From a virus (taxonomy: Duplodnaviria > Heunggongvirae > Uroviricota > Caudoviricetes), in the IMG/VR virus record IMGVR_UViG_2606217117_000014: 6,696 bases of DNA, one strand, 5' to 3'. The notes under the pieces are model-generated. The model was given only the letters and a program-made list of their open reading frames with translations. It did no database searches and was not told the origin of the DNA. Both the position numbers and the translations under genes were made by a program. Positions 1,701 to 6,696 of this stretch are shown here, piece after piece (positions within the stretch are counted from its first letter, which is position 1; each line of letters begins with the position of its first letter).

Positions 1701-1776
1701 GGCCCTTTAGCTCAGTGGTGAGAGCGAGCGACTCATAATCGCCAGGTCGCTGGTTCAAATCCAGCAAGGGCCACCA
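1701..1776 (+). tRNA. tRNA-Ile2 (anticodon CAU, lysidine-type; tRNA-Met not excluded), ileZ-like as in Stx phages
   Basis: Hand-folded cloverleaf: acceptor GGCCCTT/AAGGGCC, D stem GCTC/GAGC, anticodon loop CTCATAA, T arm GCTGG-TTCAAAT-CCAGC, discriminator A, encoded CCA. Close to recalled E. coli ileX. Confidence 0.85.
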
Positions 1777-1876
1777 TCACAAACCGCCATTAGCTTATCA
1801 GGAAGAGCAGACGACGCGATAACAGGGTTGTTGGTGCGGGGGCGGGTCCCCGATGGCGGTCCATTATCGGTATTCA

Positions 1877-1950
1877 GCGTTGTTAGCTCAGCCGGACAGA
1901 GCAATTGCCTTCTAAGCAATCGGTCACTGGTTCGAATCCAGTACAGCGCG
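1877..1950 (+). tRNA. tRNA-Arg (anticodon UCU, reads AGA/AGG), argN/argO-like
   Basis: Acceptor GCGTTGT/ACAGCGC (one G-U pair), D stem GCTC/GAGC, anticodon stem ATTGC/GCAAT with loop CTTCTAA, T arm ACTGG-TTCGAAT-CCAGT, discriminator G. No encoded CCA. Confidence 0.8.
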
Positions 1951-2090
1951 CTATATTCATTCTTCCAGATTCCTTCCGGCAGAGCCTTATACTGAAATAT
2001 ACCTGGCTCAGGATATTGTTGAAAATATTATATGTTTGTCAAAAATAAAAGTTCTGTTAAGTATTGATTGAGTGTTTGTTATACGGTCTA

Positions 2091-2417
2091 ATGGTTTTTT
2101 CAGCATTAAATATTTATCATTCATATGGTGTGGGTAGAGTGAATATTGATGAGGCGTCGGGGTGTTTCATCCTTAGGCAGCGTATTGATATAGTCAATGC
2201 AGCACGAGCAAAGGCCTTCAGCCGTTTGACAGTTTTGTTCTGTACTCCTGATCGTCTTTCGGGAAGAGACGTTATTATTCTGAATAGTGATGCTATTCAG
2301 AGGGTTTGCGATGAGTTCATGGTTGCTAATTCAGAATTATTTGCTCTTGTTCAGGAGTACAACAGAATAGCCAGGACCTGTGGTATGGATGAACTTCGGA
2401 TTACTCATCTGGGGTAG
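2091..2417 (+). CDS. Hypothetical protein, ~108 aa from ATG 2091 (117 aa if TTG 2064 is used), unknown function
   Basis: Open frame to TAG 2415-2417. Candidate promoter TTGTCA (2036-2041), 16-17 nt spacer, TAAGTA/AAGTAT (2058-2064) just upstream. No convincing SD. Occupies the position of stx genes in Stx phages. No recognisable motif. Confidence 0.4.
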   Translation: MVFSALNIYHSYGVGRVNIDEASGCFILRQRIDIVNAARAKAFSRLTVLFCTPDRLSGRDVIILNSDAIQRVCDEFMVANSELFALVQEYNRIARTCGMDELRITHLG

Positions 2418-2497
2418 ATACATATCTGGATTATCACTTGTTACGGTAAAAAGTGATTGCTTACTGTTTTTGTGAGTGGCATTGCAGCAGCCGGATA

Positions 2498-2584
2498 ATG
2501 TCAGTGCTGGCTGACGGTGTGCTGGTGGCGGGTGTGGTGGTTGTTGCTTTCCCGTTGCTGAAAAAGAAAACGCCAGACTGTTAG
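2498..2584 (+). CDS. Candidate small hydrophobic peptide, 28 aa (MSVLADGVLVAGVVVVAFPLLKKKTPDC)
   Basis: ATG 2498 to TAG 2582-2584. One predicted transmembrane-like segment followed by KKK. Weak SD (GGA about 5 nt upstream). Could be a chance ORF in GT-rich DNA. Confidence 0.2.
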   Translation: MSVLADGVLVAGVVVVAFPLLKKKTPDC

Positions 2585-2808
2585 CCGGGTATCAGTTAGC
2601 GGGAGAAATTTTTAAATACTTCACAATTCAGGCGGTTGACTGTTGTCTGGTTTGCGGGGAGTTTGTTAAAAGAAACTGGCATGGTGAATCCCCCTGTGCG
2701 GAGGGGCAATCAGCGAGTAGGTATATGGGATAATCGCGGATTCAGGTGCTGGTACTGAATTCACCGGGAGGCACCCGGCACCATGCAATGGCACATAGCG
2801 CCACTCTC

Positions 2809-2838
2809 CAGCCCCTCTCCGGAGGGGCTGTTTATATT
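2809..2838 (+). terminator. Rho-independent terminator, plus-strand orientation
   Basis: 9-bp GC-rich stem CAGCCCCTC (2809-2817) / GAGGGGCTG (2822-2830), 4-nt loop, followed by TTTATATTGATTTT. The reverse-strand flank is not U-rich. Confidence 0.6.
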
Positions 2839-2861
2839 GATTTTGTCAGATGTGAGTAAAC

Positions 2862-2895
2862 TCCTTATGGACTTTGTTGTTTTAGTCCATAAGGA
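2862..2895. repeat. Perfect 12-bp inverted repeat with 10-bp spacer (TCCTTATGGACT-N10-AGTCCATAAGGA)
   Basis: Read directly from the sequence. Overlaps the last about 10 codons and the stop of the minus-strand gene 2865-3200. Confidence 0.75.
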
Positions 2896-3200
2896 CATAT
2901 TTGCAGAGTGCAACGGTTATTAAAGCATTCATTCAATACGTTATCTGTATTTGTAGGACATTCCTGGCTGTTTTTGATTAAATTCCAGAATGTTTTATTG
3001 AATGGTGCTACGTTGTAAATGGTTACAGGTAGCACTTTGTTATTGAGCATGATACCTGTGTGAGTCAGTGTAAATATACTTTCAGGAGGTAAGAAAGCAT
3101 CCGATTGATACCAGATTATTAATTTTATTTTACTCCATATGACTGAAAAAGATATTCCGCATGATGGCTGGATAACTGTATCAATCACAATCCACTTCAT
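2865..3200 (-). CDS. Hypothetical Cys-containing protein, 111 aa, AT-rich moron gene convergent to the late operon
   Basis: Strong SD AAGGAA 6 nt upstream of ATG (plus 3198-3200). A 111-codon open frame in DNA that looks very AT-rich by eye is unlikely by chance. Translation: [18 protein letters not shown]...[10 protein letters not shown]. No recognisable family. Confidence 0.55.
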
Positions 3201-3267: not shown

Positions 3268-3460
3268 CCATAGAGCAGAATTATTTTTCTGATGTTGTTT
3301 ATTGTTTATTTAAATGCAGGGTGGTTTATATCTCGTCTTGTAGTTTATCCATGCATATCTGCTTGATGATGAGGTTTTTATTTAAGGTATGGTTTTGTGT
3401 TTTTTCTGTATTACATGTCAGGTATTTTAAAGAATTATTTTTCAGATGGTGGAAAGAACC

Positions 3461-5422
3461 ATGGCATTTAAACACTATGATGTTGTCAGGGCGGCATCGC
3501 CGTCAGACCTTGCGAAACGACTGACACAAAAACTGAAGGAGGGGTGGCAGCCATTTGGCAGTCCGGTGGCCATCACGCCTTATACCCTGATGCAGGCCAT
3601 TGCGGCGGAAGGTGATGTCACCACACCTGTGGTGGTGAAGCCGTCGGATGGAGAAGGCGCAGTTATCAGCACCACCAGCAACCCGGAGTATTACTTTGTT
3701 GTTGCCCTGGCCGGGCAGTCAAACGGTATGGCGTATGGTGAAGGGCTTCCGCTGCCGGAGACATATGACCGTCCGGACCCGCGTATTAAACAGCTGGCGC
3801 GTCGCAGCACTGTCACGCCGGGTGGTGCGTCCTGTAACTACAATGACATTATTCCTGCGGACCACTGCCTGCATGATGTTCAGGATTTGAGTAAGTTTTC
3901 ACACCCGAAAGCCAGCGCAGCTCAGTATGGATGCGTGGGGCAGGGATTACATATCGCGAAGAAATTGTTGCCGTTTATTCCGGCGAATGCCGGTATTCTT
4001 CTGGTTCCGTGCTGCCGTGGTGGTTCTGCATTTTTGGCGGGCGATGAAGGTACCTTCAGCGAATCCACCGGCGCAAGCGAGACCTCGGCACGCTGGGGTG
4101 TTGATAAGCCACTGTACAAGGACCTGCTTACCCGTACTCAGGCCGCACTGAAGGCCAACCCTAAAAATATTCTGCTTGCAGTGGTCTGGATGCAGGGCGA
4201 GTTTGATTTGAAACAGGGTGCATACGCCACTCAGCCGGGGCTGTTTGATTCCATGGTGGAAAAATATCGTTCTGACCTGTCGGAATTCGGAGGTCAGTGT
4301 CTCGGGGGCTCTCCGTCATCGGTTCCCTGGATTTGTGGCGACACGACCTACTACTGGAAGCAGACTTATTCTTCGCAATACGATGCGGTGTATGGTGCAT
4401 ACAAGACGAAATCCGCAAAAAAAATCTTCTTTGTGCCGTTTATGACGGATGAAAACGGGCGAAATGTGGGTACCAACGAGCCGTCAGAAGATCCGGATGT
4501 TGCGGATATTGGGTATTACGGAGGCGGTGGTCGAACGGACGCCAAAACCTGGACGACGGCCGACCGTAAAACGCATTTTGGATCATGGGCACGTCGTGGG
4601 ATTATTTCCGACCGTCTGGCAACGGCGATTCTTGTGCATGCCGGGAGAAACGCTGAATTCATTACCGGAAAACAGCCTGATACGGTGAAGCCCACCGGAC
4701 CTTCCGGTGAAGGTACGGAGAGAGAGCCGGAAGCCCCGGTCAGTAACCGAACCCTGATGAGTCTGCTGGCGTCCGGCGAAGACCTGGCATCACAGGGCTG
4801 GCGCTATTATCACAAACCGGCGAGCGGAGACAATGTTAACAAAAACATTGCTGAAGCGGTGGTCAGTGATGCGGGGGCTACGGGAGGTAAGGCCCTGCAA
4901 CTGAATAAACCGGAAAACCACATCTGGTTTCTGGAGCATGATGCAGCCGGACAGGGAGTGGAGTTACTGAAGAAGGGGGGACGTGTGAGCGTACGGTTTA
5001 AGTTGCCGGGTTCACTGGTGCCGAATCAGTTTGCCCTGGGCATTTACTGGCAGTTGTCGTCCCTGCCGGAGGGAGTGACGCTGGCAGAGGAAGGCAACGA
5101 CATGCTGATGTCCTTCTTTCTGCAGACGGATGCGACGAACCTGAACGCGATGCACCACAAGAAGCCGAATGCGAAGCTGGAAACGTTCGGGGTCTTTGAT
5201 AACGGATGGCACACACTGGCTTTTGAGTTTGCCGGAAACAACAGCATTCAGGTGACGCCGGTACTGGATGAGAAACGGGGGACGCCGTTCACACTGGTGA
5301 AATCTCCGGCATCAGGGGCGGCGGACAAACTGCAACTGACAGGCATATCAAAGGCGGCGACATATACGCTGCTGATTGACAGTGTGAAGGTGGAAGTGAA
5401 CAACGCGGACATCGCGGCATGA
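3461..5422 (+). CDS. nanS: Prophage sialate O-acetylesterase, NanS-p type (N-terminal DUF1737-like region, SASA/SGNH esterase domain, C-terminal extension)
   Basis: 653 aa from ATG 3461, which has SD GGTGGA 7 nt upstream; the ATG at 3446 has no SD. Block VVALAGQSNGMAYGEG carries the GQSN serine motif of the sialate O-acetylesterase family. Size and position match recalled nanS-p genes downstream of stx. Confidence 0.8.
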   Translation: MAFKHYDVVRAASPSDLAKRLTQKLKEGWQPFGSPVAITPYTLMQAIAAEGDVTTPVVVKPSDGEGAVISTTSNPEYYFVVALAGQSNGMAYGEGLPLPETYDRPDPRIKQLARRSTVTPGGASCNYNDIIPADHCLHDVQDLSKFSHPKASAAQYGCVGQGLHIAKKLLPFIPANAGILLVPCCRGGSAFLAGDEGTFSESTGASETSARWGVDKPLYKDLLTRTQAALKANPKNILLAVVWMQGEFDLKQGAYATQPGLFDSMVEKYRSDLSEFGGQCLGGSPSSVPWICGDTTYYWKQTYSSQYDAVYGAYKTKSAKKIFFVPFMTDENGRNVGTNEPSEDPDVADIGYYGGGGRTDAKTWTTADRKTHFGSWARRGIISDRLATAILVHAGRNAEFITGKQPDTVKPTGPSGEGTEREPEAPVSNRTLMSLLASGEDLASQGWRYYHKPASGDNVNKNIAEAVVSDAGATGGKALQLNKPENHIWFLEHDAAGQGVELLKKGGRVSVRFKLPGSLVPNQFALGIYWQLSSLPEGVTLAEEGNDMLMSFFLQTDATNLNAMHHKKPNAKLETFGVFDNGWHTLAFEFAGNNSIQVTPVLDEKRGTPFTLVKSPASGAADKLQLTGISKAATYTLLIDSVKVEVNNADIAA

Positions 5423-5558: not shown

Positions 5559-5741
5559 ATGACATTTATTCATCAGGTAATGCTGTACTTCTGTATGGCA
5601 GTCTGTGTTATGTATCTTCTTTCGGGTGGGTACAGGGCAGTGCGCGATTTCTGGCGCAGGCAGATTGATAAAAGGGCCGCTGAGAGAATCAGCGCCAGTC
5701 AGTCAGCCGGAAGCAAACCCGAAGATCCGCTCATTCCGTAG
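5559..5741 (+). CDS. Hypothetical small membrane protein, 60 aa
   Basis: ATG 5559. One hydrophobic segment (IHQVMLYFCMAVCVMYLLSGGY) followed by a basic/charged tail. Weak SD. An overlapping alternative frame from 5605 is also open, so the call is uncertain. Confidence 0.3.
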   Translation: MTFIHQVMLYFCMAVCVMYLLSGGYRAVRDFWRRQIDKRAAERISASQSAGSKPEDPLIP

Positions 5742-5778: not shown

Positions 5779-5827
5779 ATGTCAGAAATCACATCCCTGG
5801 TCACTGCTGAGGCAGTGAAGGAAGTCC
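5779..5827 (+). pseudogene. 5' fragment (16 codons, MSEITSLVTAEAVKEV) of a gene interrupted by the IS insertion
   Basis: ATG 5779 in an open frame that runs straight into the IS terminus at 5828. The ORF-track continuation past 5828 is IS sequence read in the wrong context. Confidence 0.25.
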
Positions 5828-6696
5828 TGAACCGCCCCGGGTTTCCTGGAGAGTATTTTATCTGTGAACTCAGGCTGCCAGATCATCGTTTCCGATGGAA
5901 GCATAATAAGCTTTTTCTGCTTCTGCCGGAGGAGTATGGCCCAGCCTTTCCAGCAATCGTCGATTGTTATACCAGTCCACCCACGTGAGTGTGGCCAGTT
6001 CCACTTCTGCACGGTTTTTCCAGCTCTTACGGTGTATTACCTCCGCTTTGTAAAGACCATTGATGCTCTCCGCCATCGCGTTGTCATACGAGTCGCCTGT
6101 ACTTCCTGTTGATGCCAGTAATCCGGCTTCCTTAAGCCGCTGTGTGTAGGCCAGCGATACATACTGAGAACCTTTATCACTGTGATGGACCGTGCCGGAC
6201 GGTCGACGGGCCCATAACGCCTGCTCCAGTGCATCCAGCACGAATGTCGTCTCCATGGACGATGAGACCCGCCACCCCACAATGTATCCGGCAAACACAT
6301 CAATGATGAACGCCACATAGACGAAGCCCTGCCATGTGCTGACGTAAGTAAAATCAGCCACCCACAGCTGGTCAGGTCGTTCTGCCACGAACTGACGGTT
6401 TACGCGGTCGCCTGCGGCAACGGCTTTCCGGCTGATGGTCGTACGGACCTTTTTACCCCGGAGAACACCGGCAAGTCCCATAACCGCCATGAGACGTGCC
6501 ACAGTGCATCTGGCCACTCTGATACCTTCCCGTAACAACTGACGCCAGACTTTACGCACACCGTATACCTTGTGATTTTCATCGTATACGCGCTGTATCT
6601 CTTTCTTCAGCCAGTCATCGCGCTGCGCACGGGCACTGCGTTTATCCGGATGATGTCGCTGTTGCTGACAGTGGTAATACGTTGACGGGGCAATAT
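5828..6696 (-). mobile_element. IS3-family insertion sequence (IS629-like), partial; runs off the right edge of the window
   Basis: Terminus TGAACCGCCCCGGGTTTCCTGGAGAG at 5828 matches the recalled IS629/IS3-family terminal inverted repeat. Encloses a DDE transposase OrfB on the minus strand ending 42 bp inside the end. Confidence 0.8.
5870..6696 (-). CDS. IS3-family transposase OrfB (DDE integrase core), N-terminal part outside the window
   Basis: Frame is open from the window edge (hand translation 6560-6696 has no stop) to TGA at plus 5870-5872. Motifs WVADFTYV, HHSDKGSQY, DSYDNAMAES, YKAE are typical DDE transposase blocks. Confidence 0.85.
   Translation of the reverse strand, partial: IAPSTYYHCQQQRHHPDKRSARAQRDDWLKKEIQRVYDENHKVYGVRKVWRQLLREGIRVARCTVARLMAVMGLAGVLRGKKVRTTISRKAVAAGDRVNRQFVAERPDQLWVADFTYVSTWQGFVYVAFIIDVFAGYIVGWRVSSSMETTFVLDALEQALWARRPSGTVHHSDKGSQYVSLAYTQRLKEAGLLASTGSTGDSYDNAMAESINGLYKAEVIHRKSWKNRAEVELATLTWVDWYNNRRLLERLGHTPPAEAEKAYYASIGNDDLAA

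What the first reader, a model, noticed from the sequence alone, without database searches (positions are those of the whole stretch)
2498..2584. 28-aa hydrophobic peptide ORF (single TM-like segment plus KKK tail)
MSVLADGVLVAGVVVVAFPLLKKKTPDC has the architecture of small membrane peptides and type I toxin-like proteins: a short N-terminus, a hydrophobic stretch of about 15 residues, and a basic C-terminus. It sits inside an otherwise ORF-poor stretch. It could instead be a chance ORF created by GT-rich sequence (GGTG repeats).
Basis: inference. Interest (0 to 1): 0.4.

Follow-up and report, generated by a model that had tools for sequence, protein, structure and literature searches.

The report
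Broken remnant of phage tciB gene
The 28-codon reading frame is real, but it is the left-over back half of a known small phage membrane-protein gene (tciB, Pfam DUF3927) that has lost its front half, its start signals and its partner gene, so it is most likely an ordinary gene relic in an E. coli prophage and not a new toxin.

Summary
The ORF at 2498-2584 exists as described. Its length alone is not beyond chance, but its sequence matches Pfam DUF3927 (E=7e-16; 1.7e-27 for the 43-aa GTG-started version at 2453-2584 that NCBI annotates). DUF3927 is TciB of phage P1. Intact members are 50-62 aa with two hydrophobic segments joined by a conserved VDF[TS]S..S...D motif. They evolve under purifying selection (dN/dS 0.15-0.42). 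They sit directly after, and overlap, a TerB-family gene (tciA), downstream of the prophage tRNA genes and 66 nt upstream of the STnc100 sRNA.

In this window tciA is gone, replaced by an unrelated phrog_2873 gene. The tciB start codon is GTG->GTT and its Shine-Dalgarno is GGAG->GGAT. The part coding for the first hydrophobic segment carries frame-breaking deletions (20-29 nt). The 28-aa ORF therefore starts at an internal Met and encodes only the half-loop, the second hydrophobic segment and the KKK tail.

This same decayed allele is in 1184 of 5426 complete E. coli genomes, and other independent truncations and frameshifted copies exist. There is no antisense promoter, terminator, antitoxin RNA or unusual RNA structure.

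Verdict: a gene relic of a known, functionally uncharacterised family. Residual translation is not excluded. Low interest.

The parts
2498..2584 (+). The 28-codon ORF of the finding. It corresponds to the C-terminal half of TciB/DUF3927: half of the inter-segment loop, the second hydrophobic segment and the KKK tail. It starts at an internal Met.
   Evidence: Pfam PF13064 E=7e-16, profile positions 26-53 of 53. Alignment with intact genes.
2453..2584 (+). The 43-codon GTG-started ORF that NCBI PGAP annotates as 'DUF3927 family protein' (WP_000562553.1). Its first 11 residues (MIAYCFCEWHC) come from frame-shifted remains of the first-segment coding region.
   Evidence: Pfam E=1.7e-27. The GTG is mutated to GTT in the common allele L029, which leaves only the 28-aa ORF.
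2425..2452 (+). Relic of the tciA 3' end and the tciB translation start. The Shine-Dalgarno is GGAG->GGAT (2428-2431) and the start codon is GTG->GTT (2440-2442). A TAA at 2447-2449 closes the frame of the 43-aa ORF upstream. The ancestral frame reads VTVKSDCLLFL and stops at TGA 2473-2475.
   Evidence: Alignments A1. Anti-SD pairing is -6.4 kcal/mol at an intact tciB start, against -3.0 and -3.3 at the two possible starts here. ORF 2380-2475.
2453..2483 (+). Decayed coding region of the first hydrophobic segment. It has deletions of 11, 4 and 5 nt relative to 54-aa alleles (11, 4 and 14 relative to 57-aa alleles), both totals frame-breaking. The conserved VDF motif is lost.
2091..2417 (+). 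phrog_2873 gene of unknown function (conserved core from about 2139). It occupies the place where intact loci have the TerB-family gene tciA, and it is not related to TerB.
   Evidence: PHROG E=3.8e-70. No BLASTP similarity to TciA. Homologs at 54-60% identity. The model is a helical hairpin without a significant PDB match.
2650..2839 (+). STnc100 sRNA gene with its terminator (2809-2830). It starts exactly 66 nt after the tciB stop, as in intact loci.
   Evidence: Rfam RF02076, 132.4 bits. Terminator scan. Same spacing in L003, L006, L026 and L015.
1701..1951 (+). Prophage tRNA genes (CAT anticodon, annotated tRNA-Ile; and tRNA-Arg TCT). In intact loci these lie directly upstream of tciA-tciB.
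   Evidence: Intact arrangement tRNA-Ile/Arg/Arg - TerB - DUF3927 in strain 83972.

Best explanation
The ORF is the 3' remnant of a tciB gene (Pfam DUF3927, PHROG 1470) in the late-operon cargo slot of a lambdoid prophage of E. coli.

In the intact module a roughly 143-aa TerB-family gene (tciA) is followed by tciB, with overlapping stop and start (GTGA). tciB encodes a 50-62-aa protein with two hydrophobic segments. The module lies between the phage tRNA genes and the STnc100 sRNA.

In the lineage of this window a recombination replaced tciA with an unrelated gene (phrog_2873). The tciB start codon, its ribosome-binding site and the first hydrophobic segment then decayed. What stays open is a 43-codon (GTG) or 28-codon (ATG) frame covering the second hydrophobic segment and the basic tail.

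Shown here: the homology, the lesions, the loss of the partner gene, and the spread of this one decayed allele. Inferred: the relic is no longer a working gene, and it persists because it is physically tied to the conserved tciB-3'/STnc100 block and travels with a very common prophage module. Any peptide made from it would come from the Q-antiterminated late transcript through a weak ribosome-binding site.
For: - **Family membership.** Pfam DUF3927 hits have E=7e-16 (28 aa) and 1.7e-27 (43 aa). P1 TciB matches the same model over its full length, E=7e-31. PHROG 1470 is 'TciB-like'.
- **Intact homologs.** They are 54-57 aa with an extra N-terminal hydrophobic segment. Of 108 representative clusters, most are 50-62 aa and share the same pattern.
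- **Selection.** Intact genes have dN/dS 0.15-0.42.
- **Partner gene.** A TerB gene lies immediately upstream in L002-L009, L012, L013, L015, L026 and P1. It is absent in the window.
- **Lesions in the window.** GTG->GTT, GGAG->GGAT, 20-29 nt of frame-breaking deletions, and an upstream in-frame TAA.
- **Ribosome binding.** Pairing is weak, -3.3 and -3.0 against -6.4 kcal/mol at an intact start.
- **Conserved positions.** Only 3 of the 8 most conserved family positions lie in the 28-aa ORF.
- **Spread of the allele.** The same decayed allele is found in varied flanks and in 1184 of 5426 complete genomes.
- **Other decay events.** Independent truncations are L010, L014 and L027. Frameshifted or shortened variants also exist.
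- **Common alleles.** They change the ORF non-synonymously: V->A and V->I in sampled loci, and L->P and G->C at family-conserved positions in protein variants P0050 and P0060. One common allele loses the GTG start.
Against: - The frame is still open in most copies. The exact 43-aa product is on record in 10,579 index blocks, and NCBI annotates it as a CDS and not a pseudogene.
- My sample of polymorphism in the relic is too small to tell neutrality from weak constraint: 3 changes in 87 nt of ORF against 5 in 89 nt of flank.
- No expression data were available, so translation of a 28- or 43-aa peptide from the late transcript cannot be excluded.
- The two-helix hairpin topology of intact TciB is inferred from hydropathy. 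AlphaFold2 on a shallow alignment gave one long helix.
Confidence: 0.78

Rival explanations
1. The truncated allele is a working gene. It would be translated into a single-pass 28- or 43-aa membrane peptide with a retained or new activity, for example modulating a membrane partner or interfering with TciA/TciB of other prophages.
For: The ORF is open and identical in thousands of assemblies and in several different flanking contexts. The peptide keeps a hydrophobic run of about 18 residues plus KKK, and keeps conserved S, D and P positions. It lies on the Q-dependent late transcript downstream of PR'.
Against: The ancestral start, Shine-Dalgarno, first segment, VDF motif and TerB partner are all lost. 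Ribosome-binding sites are weak. The GTG start is not kept in a common allele. High-frequency variants hit family-invariant residues: SVLADG becomes SVPADG or SVLADC. In-frame deletions shorten the hydrophobic run and frameshifts occur. Wide distribution is explained by the prevalence of the prophage module.
Confidence: 0.12
2. The stretch is kept not for a peptide but because it carries cis-acting sequence for the adjacent STnc100 sRNA, such as a promoter, a processing site or 5' precursor sequence. On this reading the ORF is incidental.
For: The tciB 3' end and STnc100 keep a constant 66-nt spacing and near-identical DNA in intact and truncated loci. All truncations seen remove the 5' side and keep the 3' end. 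A promoter-like match (TTGTGA-18-GATAAT, 2470-2499) faces STnc100.
Against: Promoter-like matches are at chance level in this region: 6 found, 5.4 expected. In Stx2 phages the similarity to this window starts only at about 2621, so STnc100 exists there without the tciB 3' end. The region shows no RNA structure beyond shuffles.
Confidence: 0.15
3. It is a type I toxin-antitoxin locus: a small hydrophobic toxin held in check by an antisense RNA.
For: Only the composition of the peptide supports this: short, hydrophobic, with a basic C-terminus.
Against: There is no minus-strand promoter-like or terminator-like site near the ORF. No Rfam antitoxin or toxin-leader family is found; the only nearby family is STnc100, on the same strand. 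Neither strand has structure beyond shuffles (z 0.2 and 0.4). The only protein family hit is DUF3927. The peptide is demonstrably half of a larger protein.
Confidence: 0.02
4. It is a chance ORF created by GT-rich repetitive sequence.
For: ORFs of this length are common in the window. The GGTG-rich DNA shows slippage-type indels.
Against: There are highly significant matches to a curated protein family and to P1 TciB. Nucleotide-level homology to intact genes under purifying selection is clear.
Confidence: 0.02

Closest known systems
TciB of bacteriophage P1 / Pfam PF13064 (DUF3927) / PHROG 1470
   Same: There is significant sequence homology over the second hydrophobic segment, part of the loop and the basic tail. 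The genomic neighbourhood is the same as in lambdoid tciB genes: after the phage tRNA genes, 66 nt before STnc100.
   Different: It lacks the N-terminal K/R-rich start, the first hydrophobic segment and the VDF motif. It lacks the ancestral start codon and Shine-Dalgarno. It lacks the overlapping upstream TerB-family gene tciA. [quoted passage not shown] The genes are non-essential for P1 (PMC10695390), and I found no experimental study.
Type I toxins of enterobacteria (Hok, TisB, Ldr, Ibs, ShoB, ZorO, DinQ; from general knowledge)
   Same: It is a short peptide with one hydrophobic stretch and charged residues at one end.
   Different: There is no antisense or adjacent antitoxin RNA, no structured leader, no homology, and no sign of an own promoter. 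The peptide derives from truncation of a larger protein.
Other cargo in the same prophage slot between the tRNA genes and nanS-p (stx operon of Stx phages; tciA-tciB; phrog_2873)
   Same: The position is the same: downstream of Q, PR'/tR' and the tRNA genes, and upstream of STnc100 and the nanS-p esterase (PMC12370729 places STnc100 75 nt after stx2B).
   Different: Here the slot holds a replaced gene plus a leftover fragment of the previous occupant, not an intact cargo operon.

Membership tests
TciB / DUF3927 (PF13064) | Match to the family HMM above the curated threshold | tested here: met
   58.3 bits (28 aa) and 95.6 bits (43 aa) against a gathering score of 25. PHROG 1470 E=7.8e-13.
TciB / DUF3927 (PF13064) | Full-length architecture: 50-62 aa, with two hydrophobic segments flanking the conserved VDF[TS]S..S...D motif | tested here: not met
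   The 28-aa ORF covers profile positions 26-53 only. The first segment and VDF are absent, and only 3 of 8 top-conserved positions are kept.
TciB / DUF3927 (PF13064) | Intact ancestral start codon and ribosome-binding site, overlapping the stop of the upstream gene | tested here: not met
   GTG->GTT at 2440-2442, GGAG->GGAT at 2428-2431, and frame-breaking deletions of 20-29 nt.
TciB / DUF3927 (PF13064) | Immediately preceded by a TerB-family gene (tciA) | tested here: not met
   This is present in P1, L002-L009, L012, L013, L015 and L026. In the window the upstream gene is phrog_2873, which has no similarity to TciA.
TciB / DUF3927 (PF13064) | Purifying selection on the coding frame | tested here: inconclusive
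   This is met for intact genes (dN/dS 0.15-0.42). For the truncated allele the sample is too small: 2 non-synonymous and 1 synonymous change in the ORF, and 5 changes in flanks of equal length. Variants at invariant residues and indel or frameshift variants suggest relaxation.
Type I toxin-antitoxin system | Small hydrophobic membrane-active peptide | tested here: inconclusive
   The composition fits. Membrane activity cannot be tested with these tools.
Type I toxin-antitoxin system | Antisense or overlapping small RNA antitoxin with its own promoter and terminator | tested here: not met
   There are no minus-strand promoter-like or terminator-like sites at 2400-2700. No Rfam antitoxin family is found. 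The minus-strand fold has z=0.4.
Type I toxin-antitoxin system | Homology to a known type I toxin family | tested here: not met
   Pfam returns only DUF3927.
Type I toxin-antitoxin system | Growth arrest or membrane depolarisation on expression | not testable with these tools
   Requires experiment.

The most novel reading that the evidence does not exclude
The decayed allele is carried by about one in five complete E. coli genomes. It might be translated from the late prophage transcript into a single-pass 28/43-aa peptide that has a function of its own. One example would be a dominant-negative partner that disturbs TciA-TciB complexes of co-resident or incoming phages. Another would be a membrane modulator during lysis.
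Probability: 0.07. Interest if true: 0.45.

Novelty: already known. Interest (0 to 1): 0.12.

Why it matters
In itself it matters little. It corrects an attractive but wrong reading (a new type I toxin-like peptide) and shows that a CDS annotated in thousands of E. coli genomes as 'DUF3927 family protein' is in fact a headless fragment.

It does point to something worth studying that is not new. The intact tciA-tciB pair (a TerB-family protein plus a two-segment mini membrane protein) is conserved from P1 to lambdoid prophages. It occupies the same late-operon slot as Shiga toxin genes and is tightly linked to the STnc100 sRNA. It still has no tested function.

Tried and rejected
- **Chance ORF:** rejected by the HMM and nucleotide homology.
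- **Type I toxin:** no antisense signals, no Rfam antitoxin, no RNA structure.
- **phrog_2873 as a divergent TerB analogue.** I checked whether the upstream phrog_2873 gene keeps a working pair with the ORF, because the last residues of the two proteins look alike. BLASTP found nothing. The AlphaFold2 model is a generic helical hairpin with no PDB match below E=0.05. Rejected.
- **Defence-system libraries:** neither TciA nor TciB matches PADLOC models convincingly.
- **AlphaFold2 of intact TciB:** with 8 sequences it gave one continuous helix (pLDDT 87.5, pTM 0.46). This does not settle hairpin versus long helix, so I do not use it as evidence.
- **tblastn of TciB against the phage collection:** mostly blocked by the low-complexity filter, with only 2 hits.
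- **Literature:** searches for DUF3927, TciA/TciB and TerB plus prophage gave no functional study. The P1 genome paper was not available.
- **Look-up of 28-aa variants by exact sequence:** not possible, because the minimum is 30 residues.

Full report
**Setting.** The window is the late regulatory region of a lambdoid prophage of E. coli. It is 100% identical over 2400-2900 to many genomes, including ST131 strain EC958. The order of features is:

- DUF968 (20-352)
- rusA (365-739)
- antiterminator Q (736-1557)
- a terminator at 1638-1657
- tRNA(CAT) at 1701-1776 and tRNA-Arg(TCT) at 1877-1951
- an ORF at 2064-2417
- the ORF of the finding
- the STnc100 sRNA (2650-2839, Rfam 132 bits)
- an iraM-like gene on the minus strand (2865-3200)
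- the nanS-p type esterase (3446-5422)
- DUF1378 (5559-5741)
- a DUF826 gene cut by an IS3-family insertion

**The observation.** ATG2498-TAG2584 encodes MSVLADGVLVAGVVVVAFPLLKKKTPDC exactly as stated. ORFs of this length are frequent here. There are 49 ATG-ORFs of >=28 aa in the window. In 1952-2864 there are 6, against 4.3+-1.8 in shuffles. Length alone therefore means nothing. The sequence does: it hits Pfam PF13064 (DUF3927) with E=7e-16. The longer frame from GTG2453 (43 aa) hits with E=1.7e-27. NCBI annotates that 43-aa frame as 'DUF3927 family protein', WP_000562553.1.

**What DUF3927 is.**
- Homologs retrieved with the 43-aa query fall into two groups. One is the 28-43-aa forms like the window. 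The other is 54-57-aa forms such as MTVKMRLAVVALLLFLVVMVDFSSRIMSVLADGVLVAGVVVVAFPLLKKKASGD.
- Phage annotations call the gene TciB. The P1 tciB product (54 aa) matches PF13064 over the whole profile with E=7e-31. PHROG 1470 carries the same name.
- A profile search of 1.8 billion representatives gives 108 clusters, most of them 50-62 aa. An alignment of 38 diverse members shows a basic N-terminus, a hydrophobic segment, the motif VDF[TS]S..S...D, a second hydrophobic segment, then WP.LK and a basic or polar tail.
- Six intact genes from E. coli prophages, P1, Pantoea and two other Enterobacterales give pairwise dN/dS of 0.15-0.42 wherever dS is not saturated. The full-length gene is therefore a real, constrained protein gene.
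- In every intact locus examined the gene directly follows, and overlaps by GTGA or ATGA, a ~143-aa TerB-family gene. This gene is tciA in P1.
- In E. coli strain 83972 the order is tRNA-Ile, tRNA-Arg, tRNA-Arg, TerB, DUF3927. STnc100 begins 66 nt after the tciB stop in all E. coli-type loci, including the window.
- I found no experimental work on TciB. [quoted passage not shown] The three tci genes are non-essential for P1 in a CRISPRi screen (PMC10695390; searches).

**What the window copy is.** Nucleotide alignment with intact loci shows near-identity from about 2484 to beyond 2650. It also shows clear but damaged homology back to 2425. The lesions are:

- The Shine-Dalgarno GGAG is GGAT (2428-2431).
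- The start codon GTG is GTT (2440-2442).
- The first-segment coding region has deletions of 11, 4 and 5 nt relative to 54-aa alleles (11, 4 and 14 relative to 57-aa alleles). Both totals break the frame.
- The ancestral frame now reads VTVKSDCLLFL and stops at 2473-2475.
- The frame of the surviving ORF is closed upstream by TAA at 2447-2449.
- Upstream of 2425 there is no tciA. A different gene (phrog_2873, E=3.8e-70) ends at 2417. It has no similarity to TciA by sequence or predicted fold.

The 28-aa ORF thus begins at an internal Met, which is Leu in P1 and in roughly half of the family. It encodes only half of the loop, the second hydrophobic segment and the tail. Predicted anti-Shine-Dalgarno pairing is -3.3 kcal/mol (ATG2498) and -3.0 (GTG2453), against -6.4 for an intact tciB start.

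**Distribution and decay.**
- The very same decayed allele, with the same deletions and the same junction to phrog_2873, occurs in different left and right contexts.
- It is in 1184 of 5426 complete E. coli genomes. The exact 43-aa product is on record in 10,579 index blocks.
- This breadth reflects one ancestral event spread with a common prophage module. It does not show independent conservation.
- Among four alleles sampled across the identity range, the 87-nt ORF has 3 changes (V->A and V->I at one codon, and one synonymous). The 89 nt of flank have 5. One common allele has lost the GTG2453 start.
- Catalogued protein variants of the truncated form include changes at family-invariant residues. 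SVLADG becomes SVPADG in Shigella and SVLADC in E. coli, each on hundreds to over a thousand contigs. There are also many slippage-type in-frame deletions that shorten the hydrophobic run, and frameshifts P0021, P0023 and P0103.
- Independent truncations exist. Phage vB_EcoS-813R8 fuses half of tRNA-Arg to tciB codon ~9 and adds a 1-nt frameshift. L027 keeps only the last ~75 nt. L014 lacks tciA and a start.
- All this fits relaxed constraint, though my sample cannot prove neutrality.

**Toxin-antitoxin test.** No promoter-like or terminator-like site lies on the minus strand around the ORF. Rfam finds no antitoxin or leader family, only STnc100 downstream on the same strand. Neither strand of 2440-2650 folds better than shuffles, with z 0.2 and 0.4. 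No minus-strand ORF overlaps it.

**Mechanism, as far as it can be stated.**
- *Intact module (inference).* TciB is a two-segment inner-membrane mini-protein, translationally coupled to the soluble TerB-family TciA. Its basic residues at both ends suggest both ends face the cytoplasm. It plausibly acts as a membrane partner or anchor for TciA. The hairpin topology is not demonstrated: AlphaFold2 gave a single long helix from a shallow alignment.
- *Window copy.* It is a relic on the Q-dependent late transcript. It is most probably untranslated or poorly translated, and it is retained by linkage to STnc100. A minor, non-exclusive alternative is that this DNA carries cis-elements for STnc100. 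However, Stx2 phages have STnc100 without it.

**Verdict.** The finding is a truncated member of a known, annotated family. The type I toxin idea is not supported, and the pure-chance idea is refuted. Novelty: already known. Interest is low.

Noticed in passing
window 2650-2839 (+); L003 4240-4447, L006 4231-4438, L026 1666-1871, L015 2780-2918: The STnc100 sRNA gene (Rfam RF02076) starts exactly 66 nt after the tciB stop in every E. coli-type locus, whether intact or truncated. tRNAs - tciA - tciB - STnc100 therefore behaves as one block, and STnc100 might be a 3'UTR-type product of the tciAB transcript. Some loci (L026, L010) have two STnc100 copies in tandem.
   Followed up: partly
window 2064-2417 (+), conserved core about 2139-2417: An ORF not annotated by PGAP in EC958 matches PHROG 2873 (E=3.8e-70) and has homologs at 54-60% identity. 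The predicted structure is a two-helix hairpin (pLDDT 74) without a significant PDB match. It always precedes the truncated tciB allele. Its function is unknown.
   Followed up: partly
window 2669-2794 (-): RefSeq genomes carry a 'hypothetical protein' pseudogene call on the minus strand that lies entirely inside the STnc100 sRNA gene. It is probably a spurious annotation.
   Followed up: no
intact tciB alleles P0062 / P0056 / P0094 (L003 4001-4174 etc.); truncated variants P0005, P0044, P0098, P0006-P0011: A 9-nt unit (GTGGTGATG, VVM) in the first hydrophobic segment varies in copy number, giving 54-, 57- and 60-aa proteins. The GGTG-rich second segment shows similar in-frame slippage variants. 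The length of these hydrophobic segments is polymorphic.
   Followed up: partly
window 1777-1876: Canonical loci (L026, L028) have tRNA-Ile, tRNA-Arg and tRNA-Arg close together. The window, like L029 and L030, has only tRNA(CAT) and one tRNA-Arg, separated by 100 nt in which no tRNA is detected. One tRNA-Arg seems to have been lost or to have degenerated.
   Followed up: no
window 5779-5870 (+) and 5870-6696 (-): A DUF826 gene is cut after about 18-30 codons by an IS3-family element (rve integrase domains, minus strand) that runs to the end of the window. The holin and lysis genes expected next are therefore displaced.
   Followed up: partly
window 2865-3200 (-): An iraM-like gene (RefSeq annotation: anti-adapter protein IraM; the gene at this position in related loci carries a precomputed PmrD, PF11183, hit; PHROG 4407; no Pfam hit in my scan of the window protein) sits antisense to the late operon, between STnc100 and nanS-p. 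In other copies of the module it is replaced by TolA-like genes (L016, L017).
   Followed up: no
phage collection hits H36-H65 (e.g. AP000422.1 22789-22966): Stx2 phages match the window only from about 2621 onward (about 71% identity), just downstream of stx2B. The stx operon thus occupies the same slot, between the tRNA genes and STnc100, that tciA-tciB occupies in non-Stx prophages.
   Followed up: partly
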